From an uncultured Methanosarcinales archaeon (GTDB taxonomy: Archaea > Nanobdellota > Nanobdellia > Woesearchaeales > UBA10107), in contig CAZNFC010000002.1 of assembly GCA_964572885.1 (NCBI GenBank), positions 1 to 42,004 on the forward strand: 42,004 nt of DNA, written 5' to 3'. The notes beneath the pieces were generated by a model that ran no database searches, had not been told where the DNA came from, and was given only the letters and a program-made list of their open reading frames with translations. The position numbers were made by a program, and so were the translations under genes. This document shows, one piece after another, positions 3,258 to 12,607 of this stretch. Each line of letters opens with the position of its first letter. The first letter of the stretch is position 1.

Positions 3258-6200
3258 ATGAAAAAAGCGCAATTAACGATGTTTATAATTCTCGGAATTG
3301 TAATTATAAGTATTTTCGGGTTTGTTTTCTTTGCAACAGGGCAAGTTAGAAATATACAGTCTTCAGCCCAGACACAAAAAATAGTCTCTGATATCCTTCA
3401 GTCAACTCCATTGAAATTTTATGTAGGAAGGTGCGCAGATCTGGCTCTAGAATCAGGAATAGACCTGTTATCTAAGCAGGGAGGAAAAATATTTCCAGGA
3501 CAGCCAGGGAATCTATTAAAAAATCCAGAAAAAGCATATGTATATAGGGAAGATTCAAAGAATAAGACTTATGATGTAGCGTATGCAGTACTGAAAGACA
3601 ATACTCCTCTTCCTCAGTATCCATGCAAGATAGGATTTGATAATTATGACAAGCCAGAAGCATACTGCGAATACAGATCAACGATTGAGATCCAGCCAGG
3701 CATATTTGTAAACAATTCAAAATTCAGCAATCTGGATTTCGGAATAGTAAATCTTCCAAGATTATGCAAGAATTCATTCTCCGGATGCACATTCAGAGAG
3801 GGATGGGACACAAGATTCTCTGTGCAGTCCCAGCTGGAGTCATATGTTGCCGATTATATCAAAAAATGTGTAGATTTTGAATCGATTGTCAGCGTGGCAC
3901 AATCATACAATGTTACTGAGGGGGATCCTTCTGCAAATATTACATTCTCAGACACAGAAATTTCTGCAACAATAAATTTCCCGATAATAATTTCACCCAT
4001 AGGAAGCCAGCCGATAATAAATTTATTTAATTTCCAGAGTACAGTCCCGACAAGATTCAAATTGATATACGGTCTTGCCAGAGAAGCAGTCGTAAAGGAT
4101 GTGTCTTCTCCTACTGCTCCGACATATAATCTATTTGAAGGATTGAAACAGGCAATCATTAATAGATTCAAAGGCTCTGACAGCGGACTTTTAGTGGAAA
4201 AGAATGAAAACATAACATCTTACGACAATATAATAAAAATCATAGACACGACAGAGAAAGATAGGAATTCTGTCTTTCAATTTCTCGAGGAAAACAGACC
4301 TCCTGTATTAGAGTATGTGAATCCAAGAGGTAAAATATCTACAAAATGCGGAGAATATGATCTGATTCTGCTTCAGGGACAGAATTTTGATTTTAAACCT
4401 GAAGCTTTCGATACAGAAGAAAATAATATACAATTTAATTATTCAGGCTGGCTGGCTGATTACAATGAAACAATATCCCCTCCATACACTTATGATGAAA
4501 AAGGTTGTGTCATTAATTACGTTAGCAATAAACATAACTTTCTTAATTCTCAGGATAAAAGAGTGAAGCCAAATGGATTGATATCTACTCCGATAGAAAA
4601 AAGTGATACTGGTCCGCATACATTGACCGTATACGCATGCGATTCGCAGTATTGCGACTCTGAAAATGTCAGAGTTTTAGTAGATGATCTATTAGAGGTA
4701 AATGTCAATGGTTCAAACAGGTTCGGAACACAGACATTCTCGATAGAAGATCCTTATTCTTTTTCAGCTGATATAAAAGACATATGGAATCCCGGAAATT
4801 ACCTGTTCTCATGGATAATAAAAGACAGGACAACAAACAATGTAATTTACCAAAATGATTCCGGAGGACAGACAATCAGCCTTCCGTTAGAAAACTATGA
4901 TATTTTCAATATCAAGCAGAAATACATGTCATATAACGGTCAGCCTTTCATACTTACTTCAGGAAAATACACAGCGATAGGAAGCGTAAGCCAGGGACTT
5001 AATCAGCCAATCCAGTCTAATTTTGATTTTGATGTAAAGAACTGCCTTCCTACTCCTGGAAATACAAATCCTCCTTTCCCATATTATGATGGAGATCCAT
5101 TCGATGGAAATCATGCATGCTGTGAGAGTACAGGAGACTTAAGTTCTACTACAAAACAATGTTACACTCCAACTCCGACTTATGGAAGTTTCATGTCATT
5201 TAATACGGATAAATACAAAACACAATATGACGCAGGGCAAACTGTTGCAAAATCAGGAGTAGATTTAGATCAAATAAAAACAAGTTTCGCAACAGGGCAG
5301 GTAACTTCAACAACAAATGACATATTCAAAAGAGTATTCACAAGAAACTGCGATAGAAAAAGAGGAAACATGTGCAACGGAACAATGACAGAAACTTATG
5401 TTGATATTTCTGTTCCAGACAAGCAATCAGGAGAATCAGCAACATGTTTCGGACCTCCAAGAAAATATCTAAAGGCAAACACAATAACCGAGGAAGCACT
5501 TTCATCAACTCCGTCATATGAAAAATATGGAGAGAATCCAACTACAGCAAATCCTATTACGACATTTGAGAAGGAAGTCGGAATAACGAACAGCAGCTCT
5601 TGTAATGATAATAAAAAATGCGTTTCAGACAACAATGCGGCATATGGTTATACCCTAATCGGTCAAAATCCTCATTATGTATGTTCAGCTGCATGCAGCG
5701 TGGATGGATGTACAAGAACAGTTCCAGATCCAAGCATTTGCATAAATTGTTATGATCAACAAGCATGTACATTATCGGACGGAACTCCTGCTCCTACAAT
5801 ACCTACTCCTGGATCAAGAAATTCATTTTCAATAAAACAATTTAATACATGCGTGCAGACAAACAGCTGTCAATACACGACAAGCACGACAGCAGACAGC
5901 TGCAACGGAGACTTCTTGACTGATTACTATTGCAAGCAGGATCTGTCACAGACTGGAACCGTGCTAAATCAGCAGCAGATCAATTGCACAGATTACAACA
6001 GGCAGTCTGCATTAGATGATGGAGACACACCACTTTCAGCAGGAACATGCACTTATTATGATAAAAGCCTATGTTCTAATGGACAGTGCCAGCCGCAAAC
6101 CACTCCTATAAATAAACAGGAAGGAAGGCAGACAAACTCAACAACAAGTGAATATTATTATCAAGAATACATCATAGTAAATAATCAATGCAAGGAGAAA

Positions 6201-12400: not shown

Positions 12401-12607
12401 TATTCAGCTGTTTTGGATACAAGTACACAAACATTCTCAATACATGGGATAAGGCTTGTAGGAAGGACATTTACAGAAACTCAAAACACTCTGACTTTAG
12501 TCTTGAAAAATACGGTAGGCAACACTGCAACAAGACAGTTTAGCGTGACGAAAGACTTATTGCCTCCTCAATTGATAAAGCTTGCATTCATAAAAGGAAT
12601 TGAATGA
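6437..12607 (+). CDS. Giant (about 2055 aa) multi-domain surface adhesin-like protein with a prepilin-like or Sec-like N-terminus
   Basis: Longest ORF in the window. The track start 6437 is GTG. In-frame ATGs at 6440/6443 give MDKRG|QILVLFIFTSFLLIPSLFAQ, matching the MDKKG/MDKKAQ N-termini seen elsewhere in the locus. It contains four CarboxypepD_reg-like repeats (e.g. GGVLVKAVSNSIILAQTTTGNDGSYSLNVPSSSSFSLIASKTGYSD) and an FN3-like module (IKITWSAS...YCFKVTATY). A Cys-rich region follows, then at least 8 Ig-like modules each opening with D-x-x-x-P (DTVRPNI, DDKPPVT, DYMPPVL, DSLGPNI, DTTPPVA, DRHVPGI, DLLPPQL). Confidence 0.9.
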   Translation: MMMDKRGQILVLFIFTSFLLIPSLFAQTQGGCCATSSQEVCPYVSSQSECDVYGGTYNSGVSCPNTPGCELVCKVCEPRSGTTGISQLLWGTPITGCEAAGSNLVQNGVDLTKTQDQCQGTPSSALATNLPDVEGSVKDGTTPIVGAMVWCTGSSTTSVSNGYYKVENCSIGTNVVYARFGTKSGNALLSPALGSGANAGETLRSNVNIQLLAGNSKQITIRARNSASPTTPVTASITIQNNASGFQETKSGTDVIFNVKPEIVLISAYASGFKPIFNSVDFTAISDYTVLMETQPTITLSGFTLDNSVTPNTILGGVLVKAVSNSIILAQTTTGNDGSYSLNVPSSSSFSLIASKTGYSDATISNLIYTSASTKNISLSSSAVPTTATVNVLAKDQSSNPISGVRIRLGQNGPIQETGADGKTVWSGLSMGSSYTFYAHADNYNDVFKSITIVSASSNLDITLTSVPTMILNGNIIKTSCTTSCGISGSQVVMSDGSTTTTDSNGAFTITRKVTNKVETIYVTSPGYLPNTATIPSNAGSGGSYGPVQISLTPALCNDVNNLGDIALNSQAIEDTIKITWSASCPPPQNQYTVLRKLEGEQYVPVQFVTQAPFEYNELNAAENKTYCFKVTATYSNFGGIVKTSNEQCVNVGFKECFSLPSEFCSGNTRITCTNRTNIQPLPANQQCSSDQICVRESQSVTRCLSANQCDLCNRPFGVFSQSASFIQYTQGALFGGIYRNDTNVFDCSVQSLISPQAVGCYLDSSKTVVDKYDSCADVKSCYDYNSAAACGQKKCTPSLNCQWSSYSNYSDFRIGVCKPVGIDSNKQDCAEFNNALTRGGGLRDYIFNKVFSAETGNVAKELCSLYGDACFYKASTQSCLNKDQVTCYDYGSSQSECEGAAGQSNPVNINVTWGAIPGQGVIKKSGSNKILQRSNDAVGIGLCRFTNTCIKDADKSLSSDCDPSDASCGLDVSPPNTSIDYTEYVNSTSLSYTAVDDKSSQQSIRTYSHVIRTTLLQSALLQKYPYQSEQAQNGKTLDLPCAGLVTPSNEGDNCTMLYFSEDSSHNLEEVKKINFILDTVRPNITATYSIKPYPLDNKVDLTVNLKLGKDFQGYCVDSPELGLCVQGRTCPEMPFISTIGIPGNPNEWSATYREIPTGDNGVPATFSWRCYDKAGNKAEDPSSIQLSLDADGIISNPSLVTTKSGVPVPIYVHTQNPGSCRYIDISQTGKPFDQWTPFDNVDTISEGSDYKYSSTIPSLSGSNERYRFKVKCNLTDVSDLVEGRDSDDIRITIDDKPPVTQPYTLEKGDYSFTNPQWLSTPSLRLRCADAPQGDLEYPHEIGCLGLSYCLNNYASPAETPCTLVQSSPDVLIDLSGKDSAVLSYSSSDKLGNVETGSPKQQLLLLDYMPPVLNLNYPLNTTFIVQKEGYVTLSGFVNNLGPDGCVGSSSISPNGCLSSPLSSIYYELRYRTQPTLTEHQLNETIQQSGYGTINIPTRTIVLKDNKVNELSIIARDQAGNPSSTIPIVIVHDSLGPNISQATINGNDINSSINVPFGQDYDLSIGNLKDIYPDSADLFSRVDSVWVKDMFGAKYNLHRSGTVWVGKIKTGVWPITTSAFRTFITVFANDTLGNPEEKPIQVNIVVKDTTPPVATYKFENSYGENVNQLVKGLNYMVLQASETLDNLSMNLTSIDNPSIQYKVRFVARDFDAVTWIGIINVTDTVTPLRAAGIMYDSNGLNSSDFTHISGSVNVDINPLEITEPIPLGAIPNDGIYYVIERPVIYSTLGFSNQFNVNGVISTSNPVSGLNLGINDVTIRVEDDSGNYKIFNQKVFVNSTSSLSSSGDSVLNIVTKPLTNADPLYAEVHVSGGSPVSAPNIFLDGNSLSLTKLDNGSYYYKQTRTDISEGAHTITSVVTSQGPLQVSASPVQINVDRHVPGISSISANDLSNVKLIDSQITSRNQTLDLVSYYNDSDISEAYVIGDDGAKYSAVLDTSTQTFSIHGIRLVGRTFTETQNTLTLVLKNTVGNTATRQFSVTKDLLPPQLIKLAFIKGIE

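What the first reader, a model, noticed from the sequence alone, without database searches (positions are those of the whole stretch)
3258..12607. Two giant proteins (1030 and about 2055 aa) carry pilin-type N-termini and may be oversized tip or minor-pilin adhesins
Seen in sequence: MKKA|QLTMFIILGIVIISIFGFVFF... (3258) and MDKRG|QILVLFIFTSFLLIPSLF... (6443) have the same [KR][GA]Q plus hydrophobic helix signature as the small pilin-like neighbours. They continue into more than 1000 aa of extracellular modules. Inference: if processed by a prepilin peptidase, they could be built into a fibre through the N-terminal helix and display a very large adhesin. Pilins of 1000-2000 aa would be extraordinary. 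The 6437 N-terminus could also be read as a Sec signal (LFA|QTQ), so this call is ambiguous.
Basis: inference. Interest (0 to 1): 0.7.

Follow-up and report, generated by a model that had tools for sequence, protein, structure and literature searches.

The report
One giant pilin-like protein, one not
Of the two giant surface proteins in this tiny symbiotic-type (DPANN) archaeon, the 1030-residue one carries a strongly conserved pilin-type N-terminus and founds a very large unnamed family. The 2054-residue one has only an ordinary secretion signal that resembles a pilin signal by chance.

Summary
Both N-termini are in the sequence as described. Comparison with relatives separates them.

**ORF2 (3258..6350, 1030 aa).**
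- It belongs to a very large uncharacterised family: 816 clusters at E<=1e-30, and no Pfam match.
- In 157 of 160 members a leader of variable length ends in [KR][G/A/S]. An invariant Gln and about 21 hydrophobic residues follow.
- This segment is the most conserved stretch of the whole protein.
- No signal peptidase I site is conserved after it.
- A type IV leader peptidase gene lies beside the cluster in two distant relatives.
- ORF2 is therefore most likely a class III (pilin-type) signal protein. It probably docks through its N-terminal helix into the assembly made by the roughly 14 small pilin-like genes downstream.
- Its globular part matches no known pilin fold.

**ORF3 (6443..12607, 2054 aa).**
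- Only 1 of 10 syntenic orthologues has [KR][GA]Q.
- All 10 keep a hydrophobic core of about 17-20 residues, small or neutral residues at -3/-1, and a Cys-rich mature N-terminus.
- It is a Sec-secreted, unanchored giant, comparable in role to PilY1.

**Verdict.** Processing and incorporation into a filament remain untested.

The parts
1..3251 (+). ORF1. A Cys-rich giant protein truncated at its 5' end by the contig end. It is the first gene of the conserved giant-protein block.
   Evidence: The frame is open from base 3 with no upstream stop; 1066 aa are listed. It has 31 Cys and no hydrophobic segment in the part present. It has no Pfam or NCBIfam hit. The genes at the same position in L009 and L011 have Sec-type N-termini and the same C-terminal motif, W-x-[DQ]-L-T-[AG]-K-[LV]-R.
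3258..6350 (+). ORF2, 1030 aa. A giant protein with a class III (pilin-type) N-terminus, and a member of a very large unnamed DPANN family.
3258..3269 (+). ORF2 leader MKKA. The predicted prepilin-peptidase cleavage is after Ala4.
   Evidence: In the family, position -1 is G 75, A 48, S 32, T 2, and position -2 is K 83, R 62, other 12. The distance of the Gln from the annotated Met ranges from 4 to 129, median 7.
3270..3335 (+). ORF2 residues Q5-A26, the conserved hydrophobic N-terminal helix (QLTMFIILGIVIISIFGFVFFA).
   Evidence: Q5 is invariant, and T7, F9 and G13 are conserved in at least 90% of 44 sequences at 21-32% identity. Residues 3-26 have a mean majority fraction of 0.71, against 0.42 for the rest of the protein. 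The four best of 1007 24-residue windows start at residues 1-4. AlphaFold2 predicts one continuous helix over residues 2-47/48.
3405..4292 (+). ORF2 residues 50-345, the family-defining alpha/beta N-terminal domain. It ends in the ENRPPVLE motif.
   Evidence: The domain model has pLDDT 84.7 and pTM 0.78. The hmmsearch profile matches positions 1-337 at the N-terminus of the hits. No PDB structure matches below E=0.026. No PDB sequence matches.
4305..5057 (+). ORF2 residues 350-600, tandem Ig-like beta-sandwich domains.
   Evidence: The region is all-beta in DSSP, with pLDDT mostly 82-93. Foldseek matches it to Ig-domain arrays such as Dscam, titin, neurofascin and complement MG domains.
5058..6347 (+). 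ORF2 residues 601-1030, the Cys-rich distal region.
   Evidence: The protein has 38 Cys. Conserved Cys columns lie throughout this region. There is no family match.
6443..12607 (+). ORF3, 2054 aa. A Sec-secreted giant adhesin-like protein with no membrane anchor.
   Evidence: CarboxypepD_reg domain, E=4.1e-13. Its only hydrophobic segment is residues 6-24. Collinear orthologues lie directly downstream of the ORF2 homologue in L001, L002, L005-L011.
6443..6514 (+). ORF3 Sec-type signal peptide MDKRGQILVLFIFTSFLLIPSLFA. The predicted signal peptidase I cleavage is after Ala24, giving a mature N-terminus QTQGGCC.
   Evidence: K3, A24, C30 and C31 are invariant in the 5-orthologue alignment. The -3/-1 residues are LFA, SFA, SFA, VHA, SFA, VSA, VFS, SFA, ADA and VLA in the 10 orthologues. 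[KR][GA]Q occurs only in the window.
12617..15754 (+). ORF4, 1045 aa. It has a Sec signal, an Ig-like and Cys-rich ectodomain with a TSP3 repeat, three hydrophobic segments at residues 797-868, and a Lys/Glu-rich tail.
   Evidence: It is conserved downstream of ORF3 in L001, L005, L006, L007, L009 and L010. In L008 a single 2161-aa gene has a TSP3_bac hit (faint), a transmembrane segment near its C-terminus and a Lys-rich tail, so it looks like a fusion with ORF4.
15751..24472 (+). About 14 small pilin-like ORFs (85-363 aa) with [KR][GA] followed by a hydrophobic helix. They include three tandem ORFs of 85-94 aa at 21453..22262, which are candidate major pilins.
   Evidence: The first four families are conserved in the same order in L008, L010 and L011. 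No Pfam pilin family matches them.
24465..26576 (+). A 703-aa pilin-like ORF (MDKKG|YVFVPFIVIG...) carrying a 3D domain. It is the last gene of the cluster.
   Evidence: PF06725 (3D domain), 30.0 bits against a cut-off of 23.8, residues 260-324. The N-terminus is shown.

Best explanation
The window is one contig of a DPANN (Woesearchaeota/Nanoarchaeota-type) archaeon. It carries a conserved surface-apparatus operon. The gene order is: secreted giants (ORF1), then ORF2, ORF3 and ORF4, then about 14 small pilin-like proteins, then a 703-aa pilin-like protein.

**ORF2.** It is made with a class III (type IV pilin-type) signal. A type IV leader (A24) peptidase cuts after MKKA. The invariant Gln then heads a helix whose first 21 or so residues are hydrophobic. 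That helix docks ORF2 into the pilus or pseudopilus built from the small pilin-like proteins. ORF2 most plausibly acts as a low-copy tip or minor subunit, because a 1000-residue ectodomain cannot pack along a filament shaft. The ectodomain consists of a new alpha/beta domain, an Ig-like stalk and a Cys-rich head, and is held out as an adhesin.

**ORF3.** It is not a pilin. It is exported through Sec, cut by signal peptidase I after LFA, and released without an anchor. It must therefore be held by partners. The likely partners are ORF2 and/or the membrane-anchored ORF4, much as PilY1 is held by minor pilins in bacteria.

**Shown here:** the sequences, the conservation of each type of signal, the synteny, the size of the family, the lack of any known domain, and the adjacent peptidase gene in relatives.

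**Inferred:** cleavage, docking into a filament, tip position, adhesin function, and ORF2-ORF3-ORF4 contact.
For: **ORF2**
- Variable leader, fixed motif. All 30 homologues from the word-based search that have a complete N-terminus show [KRQ][AGS]-Q-[LIVF]-[TS]-x-[FL], with leaders of 4 to 27 residues.
- A profile of residues 1-352 finds 7389, 4432 and 816 clusters at E<=1e-3, 1e-10 and 1e-30 among 1.84 billion representatives. The match is always at the N-terminus of the hit.
- 157 of the 160 sequences in hand carry the motif. The other 3 are gene calls that start inside the helix. Position -1 is G/A/S in 155 of 157, and -2 is K/R in 145 of 157.
- Q5 is one of only five invariant columns among 44 sequences at 21-32% identity.
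- Residues 3-26 form the most conserved window of the protein.
- There is no conserved small-x-small site after the helix. Distant members have R or K there, for example LFVRS and LFARN. AlphaFold2 predicts an unbroken helix over residues 2-47.
- The +1 Gln and a short leader ending in a small residue are the signature reported for EppA-processed pilins of Methanococcus maripaludis (PMC3875500). That type of system ('system 1') is reported in some DPANN (bioRxiv 10.64898/2026.04.22.720090).
- The order ORF2 homologue, then a giant with CarboxypepD_reg, then small pilin-like genes is kept down to 21-27% identity.
- A Peptidase_A24 gene lies beside the cluster in L008: 27.1 bits against a cut-off of 26.5, with D20 and an AGD83AKL motif. 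A second one lies beside it on a JGI contig.

**ORF3**
- 10 of 10 orthologues keep the n-h-c layout, small or neutral residues at -3/-1, and a Cys-rich mature start.
- Only 1 of 10 has [KR][GA]Q.
Against: - No pilin or class III family in Pfam or NCBIfam matches ORF2 or its neighbours.
- The confident model of ORF2 residues 1-352 has no significant structural match to any pilin, or to anything else, in the PDB. The best hit is E=0.026.
- A profile-profile comparison with the first small-pilin family aligns only the N-terminal 35 columns, at 45% probability.
- ORF2 lacks the +5 Glu seen in M. maripaludis and bacterial pilins.
- No assembly ATPase, platform protein or peptidase is encoded in the window. 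The 9 related loci I could read show no ATPase or platform within 10 kb.
- A basic residue before a membrane helix is also expected for a plain signal anchor.
- No signal-peptide predictor (SignalP, FlaFind) was available. The Sec versus class III calls rest on conservation and on the -3/-1 rule.
Confidence: 0.6

Rival explanations
1. ORF2 is a plain type II membrane protein. The N-terminal helix is an uncleaved signal anchor that ties a cell-surface adhesin to the membrane, with no link to pilus assembly. The conserved residues serve membrane packing or another interaction.
For: ORF2 has a single N-terminal hydrophobic segment preceded by basic residues. No pilin fold was detected and no pilin family matches. 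No assembly machinery is present in the window or in the 10-kb flanks of relatives.
Against: A signal anchor needs only hydrophobicity. Here position -1 is G/A/S in 155 of 157 members, +1 Gln is invariant, and the helix is the best-conserved part of a 1000-aa protein. The same K-[GA]-Q junction is found in the adjacent small pilin-like genes. A leader peptidase gene is adjacent in two relatives. The family is always linked to the pilin-like gene set.
Confidence: 0.22
2. ORF2 is cut by the prepilin peptidase but is not part of an extended fibre. It stays at the membrane in a short pseudopilus or surface raft, as the class III-signal sugar-binding proteins of the Sulfolobus bindosome do. There it organises ORF3 and ORF4 into a surface layer or attachment organelle.
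For: This rival rests on the same signal evidence as the best explanation. ORF2 is very bulky and always sits beside ORF3 (unanchored) and ORF4 (C-terminally anchored, resembling an S-layer protein). Archaeal type IV filament loci are reported to include S-layer-like and large adhesin-like proteins (PMC4858521; bioRxiv 10.64898/2026.04.22.720090). That the bindosome proteins carry class III signals is from my own knowledge; I did not check it here.
Against: Nothing in hand separates this rival from a tip position on a true pilus. The three tandem ORFs of 85-94 aa look like major pilins of a real filament.
Confidence: 0.25
3. One reading: both ORF2 and ORF3 are processed by a prepilin peptidase and built into a fibre as giant pilins.
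For: The window's ORF3 does read KRG|QILVLF and matches the FlaFind-type pattern. L011's orthologue reads KKRG|FVVA.
Against: The motif is absent from 8 of 10 orthologues, and the Gln from 9 of 10. All 10 keep a canonical signal peptidase I site 17-24 residues further on, followed by a conserved Cys-rich start. That cut would remove the hydrophobic segment anyway. The helix-breaking Pro at -5 is typical of a c-region.
Confidence: 0.04

Closest known systems
EppA-processed class III signal (type IV pilin-like) proteins of the Epd pilus of Methanococcus maripaludis, and archaeal type IV filament 'system 1 / clade 1' loci
   Same: Short basic leader ending in a small residue, +1 Gln, and a hydrophobic helix straight after the cut site. 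Many pilin-like genes lie in one locus together with large adhesin-like proteins. A dedicated A24 peptidase gene is in or beside the locus in some relatives (PMC3875500; PMC4858521).
   Different: ORF2 is 1030 aa, against about 60-300 aa. It has no +5 Glu and no DUF361/Class_IIIsignal match. Its leader ends in A or S as often as in G. Its globular part is a new alpha/beta domain rather than a recognisable pilin head. No ATPase or platform gene is in the locus.
Bacterial modular minor pilins (Streptococcus sanguinis PilB and PilC, ETEC CofB, Thermus ComZ, T2SS GspK)
   Same: A pilin-type N-terminus carries bulky extra modules that are expected at the filament tip. Such proteins are frequent in ultrasmall episymbiotic lineages, for example Candidate Phyla Radiation (CPR) bacteria (PMC8179133).
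   Different: They are bacterial and carry the IPR012902 N-methylation motif, with a distinct small pilin module plus a graft. The largest in that survey has 860 residues. The ORF2 family has a median of 1020 and reaches 1937 residues, and no separate pilin module can be seen in it.
PilY1 / PilC tip adhesins and the DUF2341-containing large proteins of archaeal clade 1 loci. This is the analogue for ORF3, not for ORF2.
   Same: A large Sec-exported non-pilin adhesin, encoded among minor pilin genes and presumed to be held by them (PMC4858521; PMC8179133).
   Different: ORF3 has no DUF2341 or PilY1 beta-propeller match. It is built from CarboxypepD_reg/Ig-like and Cys-rich modules.
Sulfolobus bindosome substrate-binding proteins with class III signals
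   Same: Large functional proteins that are not filament subunits, use a pilin-type signal, and depend on a type IV-like assembly system (my own knowledge; not tested here).
   Different: They are solute-binding proteins of about 500-600 aa from Thermoproteota, and are unrelated to ORF2 in sequence.

Membership tests
Class III signal peptide / type IV pilin-like proteins (ORF2) | Short, mostly basic leader ending in Gly, Ala or Ser directly before the hydrophobic segment | tested here: met
   MKKA|Q in the window. In the family, position -1 is G/A/S in 155 of 157 and -2 is K/R in 145 of 157. Leader length varies.
Class III signal peptide / type IV pilin-like proteins (ORF2) | About 20 hydrophobic residues from +1 that start a long alpha-helix and form the most conserved part of the protein | tested here: met
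   Q5-A26. AlphaFold2 helix over residues 2-47. Top-ranked conservation window. Q5 invariant.
Class III signal peptide / type IV pilin-like proteins (ORF2) | No signal peptidase I site after the hydrophobic segment | tested here: met
   No conserved small -3/-1 pair. Distant members have Arg or Lys straight after the helix.
Class III signal peptide / type IV pilin-like proteins (ORF2) | Match to a curated pilin or class III signature (Pfam, NCBIfam) | tested here: not met
   No hit for ORF2, for 44 family members, or for the small neighbours.
Class III signal peptide / type IV pilin-like proteins (ORF2) | Pilin-type globular head packed on the C-terminal half of helix 1 | tested here: inconclusive
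   The confident model of residues 1-352 (pLDDT 84.7) gives no PDB match below E=0.026 and no pilin among the hits. Model coordinates could not be inspected.
Class III signal peptide / type IV pilin-like proteins (ORF2) | Cleavage by an A24 prepilin peptidase | not testable with these tools
   No peptidase gene is in the window. A Peptidase_A24 gene with both Asp motifs lies beside the cluster in L008, and another on a JGI contig.
Class III signal peptide / type IV pilin-like proteins (ORF2) | Assembly by a type IV ATPase and platform protein into a filament | not testable with these tools
   Neither is present in the window or within 10 kb in 9 related loci. The rest of the genome is not in hand.
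Class III signal peptide / type IV pilin-like proteins (ORF3) | Conserved [KR][GA] junction before the hydrophobic segment, which is retained in the mature protein | tested here: not met
   [KR][GA]Q in 1 of 10 orthologues and [KR][GA]x in 2 of 10. All 10 have a downstream signal peptidase I site.
Sec signal peptide cut by signal peptidase I (ORF3) | n-h-c layout, with a hydrophobic core of about 15-20 residues and small or neutral residues at -3 and -1 | tested here: met
   LFA, SFA, SFA, VHA, SFA, VSA, VFS, SFA, ADA and VLA in the 10 orthologues. A24 is invariant in the 5-orthologue alignment, and a Cys pair follows. No predictor was run.
PilY1 / DUF2341 pilus tip adhesins (ORF3) | PilY1 beta-propeller or DUF2341 domain | tested here: not met
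   Only CarboxypepD_reg-type domains were found.

The most novel reading that the evidence does not exclude
The ORF2 family comprises hundreds to thousands of sequence clusters, all unnamed and without any Pfam domain. On this reading it is a DPANN-wide class of true type IV filament subunits of about 1000-1900 residues. These would be the largest pilin-class proteins known. They would cap host-attachment pili and carry a Sec-secreted partner of about 2000 residues (ORF3). The conserved operon ORF2-ORF3-ORF4-pilins would then be the attachment organelle of Woesearchaeota-type episymbionts.
Probability: 0.3. Interest if true: 0.75.

Novelty: new variant of a known kind. Interest (0 to 1): 0.55.

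Why it matters
DPANN archaea are thought to live attached to other cells, but how they attach is largely unknown.

This work yields a very large conserved protein family with a pilin-type N-terminus. The family always sits beside two other giant surface proteins and a fixed set of small pilin-like genes. That is a concrete, testable candidate for the attachment apparatus.

If the processing is confirmed, it would extend the 'modular pilin' idea from bacteria to archaea, at roughly twice the size reported so far.

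The work also gives a practical caution. A single sequence that fits [KR][GA]Q plus a hydrophobic run, like ORF3, can be an ordinary Sec signal. Comparison with orthologues settles it.

Tried and rejected
- **Exact look-up of ORF2 in the contig index.** Not on record, so no sequence beyond the window was obtained.
- **Word-based homologue search with full-length ORF3.** The candidate list was swamped. It returned only the protein itself and one partial hit.
- **Second search with ORF3's Cys-rich core.** It returned nothing, not even the query protein, and wasted a capped search. ORF3 orthologues were obtained by synteny instead.
- **The search for related loci with the 28-sequence alignment.** No stretch was conserved enough. 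A 13-sequence alignment gave 5 loci.
- **Pfam and NCBIfam on the giants and small neighbours.** No pilin, class III, PilY1 or DUF2341 family. The weak 'Amuc_1099 pilus-like' hit in ORF4 is below the cut-off and covers only the TSP3 repeat.
- **PDB sequence profile search with the N-terminal domain.** Nothing.
- **Foldseek with the full-length model.** Only generic Ig-array matches.
- **Foldseek with the N-terminal domain.** Nothing significant in the PDB. In the viral library, one marginal hit with a low TM-score, E=6.7e-4 and TM 0.19.
- **hhalign of the ORF2 N-terminal domain against the first small-pilin family.** Only the signal and helix region aligns, at 45% probability, so I did not claim a shared pilin module.
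- **Pfam scan of 44 family members for varied C-terminal 'effector' modules.** None found. The whole architecture of about 1000 aa is conserved as a unit rather than being visibly modular.
- **Tandem repeats in 1..16000.** None.

Full report
**Setting.** The window is an entire 42,004-bp contig in the NCBI record. It encodes topoisomerase VI A and B, RadA, an RPA-like protein and ribosomal protein S2, so the organism is an archaeon. The named relatives of its genes are Woesearchaeota and Nanoarchaeota, which belong to the DPANN group.

On the + strand the region 1..26576 reads as follows:
- ORF1, cut by the contig end because the frame is open from base 3.
- ORF2 at 3258..6350.
- ORF3 at 6443..12607.
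- ORF4 at 12617..15754.
- About 14 small ORFs with pilin-like N-termini at 15751..24472.
- A 703-aa ORF of the same kind at 24465..26576.

Gaps between the big genes are 6, 92 and 9 nt, and ORF4 overlaps the next gene by 4 nt. This layout suggests a single operon.

**The observation.** Each protein has one hydrophobic segment, at the N-terminus, and no C-terminal anchor. Both fit a FlaFind-type pattern; I wrote that pattern from memory, because no FlaFind or SignalP tool was available. ORFs with '[KR][GAS] then a hydrophobic run' are concentrated in this cluster: 17 of the window's 96 ORFs of at least 60 aa have it, and 14 of those lie between 3258 and 26576 on the + strand.

**ORF2 is the founding example of a very large family with a pilin-type N-terminus.**
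- The first search gave 32 relatives of about 1000 aa, all 'hypothetical'.
- Their leaders vary from 4 residues (MKKA) to 27 (MLKKEVRRNSFSDKFNKSNKKS). All then read [KRQ][AGS]-Q-[LIVF]-[TS]-x-[FL]-x-I-L-G.
- A profile of residues 1-352 was searched against 1.84 billion cluster representatives. It found 7389 clusters at E<=1e-3, 4432 at <=1e-10 and 816 at <=1e-30. The match starts at or near the protein's N-terminus in almost all of them.
- Of the 160 sequences in hand, 157 carry the motif. The other three are gene calls that begin inside the helix.
- Position -1 is G 75, A 48, S 32, T 2. Position -2 is K or R in 145 of 157. The Gln lies 4 to 129 residues from the annotated Met, median 7. Lengths run from 280 to 1937 aa, median 1020.
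- In 44 sequences at only 21-32% identity to ORF2, Gln5 is one of five invariant columns.
- Residues 3-26 have a mean majority fraction of 0.71, against 0.42 for the rest. The four best of 1007 24-residue windows start at residues 1-4.
- After the helix there is no conserved small-x-small site. Distant members put Arg or Lys there.
- AlphaFold2 predicts one unbroken helix over residues 2-47.

A plain signal anchor needs hydrophobicity only. A fixed small residue, an invariant Gln and a top-conserved helix behind a leader of free length are what class III signals look like. The +1 Gln with a short leader ending in a small residue is the reported signature of EppA substrates in Methanococcus maripaludis (PMC3875500). 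That type of system is reported in some DPANN (bioRxiv 10.64898/2026.04.22.720090).

**Context supports this reading.** In every related locus I could read downstream of the ORF2 homologue, it is followed by a giant orthologous to ORF3: about 1900-2160 aa, with CarboxypepD_reg hits, except 809 aa without a Pfam hit in L010. These loci are L001, L005, L006, L007, L008, L009, L010 and L011, with identity to ORF2 down to 21-27%. An ORF4-like gene usually comes next, followed by the same ordered set of small pilin-like genes.

In two distant relatives a Peptidase_A24 gene lies one gene upstream of the ORF2 homologue, transcribed divergently from the cluster.
- In L008 it scores 27.1 bits against a cut-off of 26.5, and has Asp20 and an AGD83AKL motif. 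These correspond to the two catalytic-aspartate motifs of this family, as I know them.
- The other is on a JGI contig that carries P0028.

**What ORF2 does not show.**
- No Pfam or NCBIfam family matches it, its neighbours, or 44 family members.
- The model is confident: pLDDT 84.3 for the full length, and 84.7 with pTM 0.78 for residues 1-352. It shows the N-terminal helix, a second helix at 50-74, an alpha/beta domain to about residue 345, Ig-like domains at 350-600, and a Cys-rich end.
- The N-terminal domain matches nothing significant in the PDB (best E=0.026, no pilin) or by sequence profile.
- The full-length model matches only generic Ig arrays.
- Comparison with the first small-pilin family aligns only the signal and helix region.
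- No ATPase, platform or peptidase gene is in the window.

So 'pilin-type signal' is well supported. 'Pilin fold' and 'built into a fibre' are not shown.

**ORF3 has a Sec signal.** Direct searches failed, so I took the gene downstream of each ORF2 homologue. Five of these align along their whole length at 26-35% identity. The ten N-termini are:

| Locus | N-terminus |
|---|---|
| window | MDKRGQILVLFIFTSFLLIPSLFA\|QTQGGCC |
| L001 | MDKKQFILVFILFASLFLIPQSFA\|QQGCC |
| L002 | MIDKKRFILVIVLLFALVLIEDSFA\|DSCC |
| L005 | MKMTKIRLVLVLLVLFFPIFLLFNVHA\|QDLACC |
| L006 | MDKTGFFVVLFLVSLFIIPLSFA\|DPCC |
| L007 | KRVLLVILVVALVLFSGQIVSA\|EEYGCCC |
| L008 | MKRKVLVLVILAFLVVLLPFVFS\|QVSLPGCC |
| L009 | MTKRDLGLAIFLLVGLFILPASFA\|QDGCC |
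| L010 | MLASKKLFLLFVFLLFSLIFVEGADA\|GCC |
| L011 | MRSKKRGFVVACALFFLFAVASVLA\|AETP..GC |

- [KR][GA]Q occurs once in ten.
- The -3/-1 rule is met ten times in ten.
- Ala24 and the following Cys pair are invariant in the five-sequence alignment.

The window's KRGQ is therefore a chance fit at the n/h boundary of a normal signal peptide. The mature protein should start at QTQGGCC and has no anchor.

**Working model.**
- ORF2 is cut by an A24 peptidase. It uses its conserved helix to join the assembly made by the small pilin-like proteins. The three tandem ORFs of 85-94 aa at 21453..22262 are the best candidates for the major subunit.
- Given its bulk, ORF2 would sit at the tip or as a rare subunit, or at the base in a short pseudopilus.
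- ORF3 is secreted and unanchored. It needs a holder, as PilY1 does with minor pilins in bacteria.
- ORF4 has a Sec signal, hydrophobic segments at residues 797-868 and a Lys/Glu-rich tail. In L008 a single gene appears to combine ORF3 and ORF4. This argues that the two act together.
- All steps after 'has this type of signal' are inference.

**Comparison with what is known.**
- Archaeal type IV filament loci with several minor pilins, large adhesin-like proteins and S-layer-like proteins have been described (PMC4858521; bioRxiv 10.64898/2026.04.22.720090).
- Bacterial 'modular pilins' carry grafted modules and are common in CPR episymbionts. The largest found in that survey has 860 residues (PMC8179133).
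- The ORF2 family differs in four ways: it is archaeal, it is larger, it lacks any recognised module or pilin head, and it is conserved as one unit of about 1000 aa.
- I rate it a new variant of a known kind. This rating applies to ORF2 only.

**Verdict.** My confidence is about 0.7 that ORF2 is processed as a class III signal protein, and about 0.9 that ORF3 is a Sec substrate. Interest: 0.55.

Noticed in passing
window 24465..26576 (+): A third large protein with a pilin-like N-terminus (703 aa, MDKKG|YVFVPFIVIG...). It carries a 3D domain (PF06725, 30.0 bits against a cut-off of 23.8, residues 260-324). From my own knowledge, this fold is found in peptidoglycan lytic transglycosylase-type proteins. 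It could be a wall-attacking enzyme displayed on the same apparatus.
   Followed up: partly
window 21453..22262 (+): Three tandem ORFs of 85-94 aa with KKG followed by a hydrophobic helix and short Cys-containing tails (21453..21737, 21745..22008, 22005..22262). They are the best candidates for the major filament subunit. L010 has two similar genes.
   Followed up: partly
L008 1687..6679 (- strand), and a JGI 3300072015 contig for which no DNA was held: In two distant relatives the Peptidase_A24 gene next to the cluster sits in a block with an HxsD-family gene and two radical SAM genes, which looks like a peptide-modification set. Its link to the pilin-like cluster is unexplained.
   Followed up: no
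window 1..3251 (+); L009 8123..9988; L011 7581..9923: The gene just upstream of the ORF2 homologue ends in a shared motif: W-x-[DQ]-L-T-[AG]-K-[LV]-R-[IA]-x-stop. The genes are otherwise very different in length. The window's copy lacks its N-terminus because the contig ends.
   Followed up: no
window 12617..15754 (+); L008 12627..19112: ORF4 has a Sec signal, a TSP3 repeat, three hydrophobic segments (residues 797-868) and a Lys/Glu-rich tail of about 175 residues, presumably cytoplasmic. In L008 the ORF3 and ORF4 equivalents appear fused into one 2161-aa protein.
   Followed up: partly
L001 / L003 (record OZ246410.1): The 774-kb 'chromosome' that carries the closest long syntenic locus is titled 'uncultured Methanosarcinales archaeon'. 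Its size and gene content fit a DPANN genome, so the title looks like a mislabel. One family member is likewise labelled 'Bdellovibrio sp.' on a 9-kb contig.
   Followed up: no
window 34851..35005 (-): Adjacent tRNA-Cys(GCA) and tRNA-Arg(TCT) genes. GC skew changes sign near 34 kb, about where the larger ORFs listed change from mostly + strand to mostly - strand.
   Followed up: no
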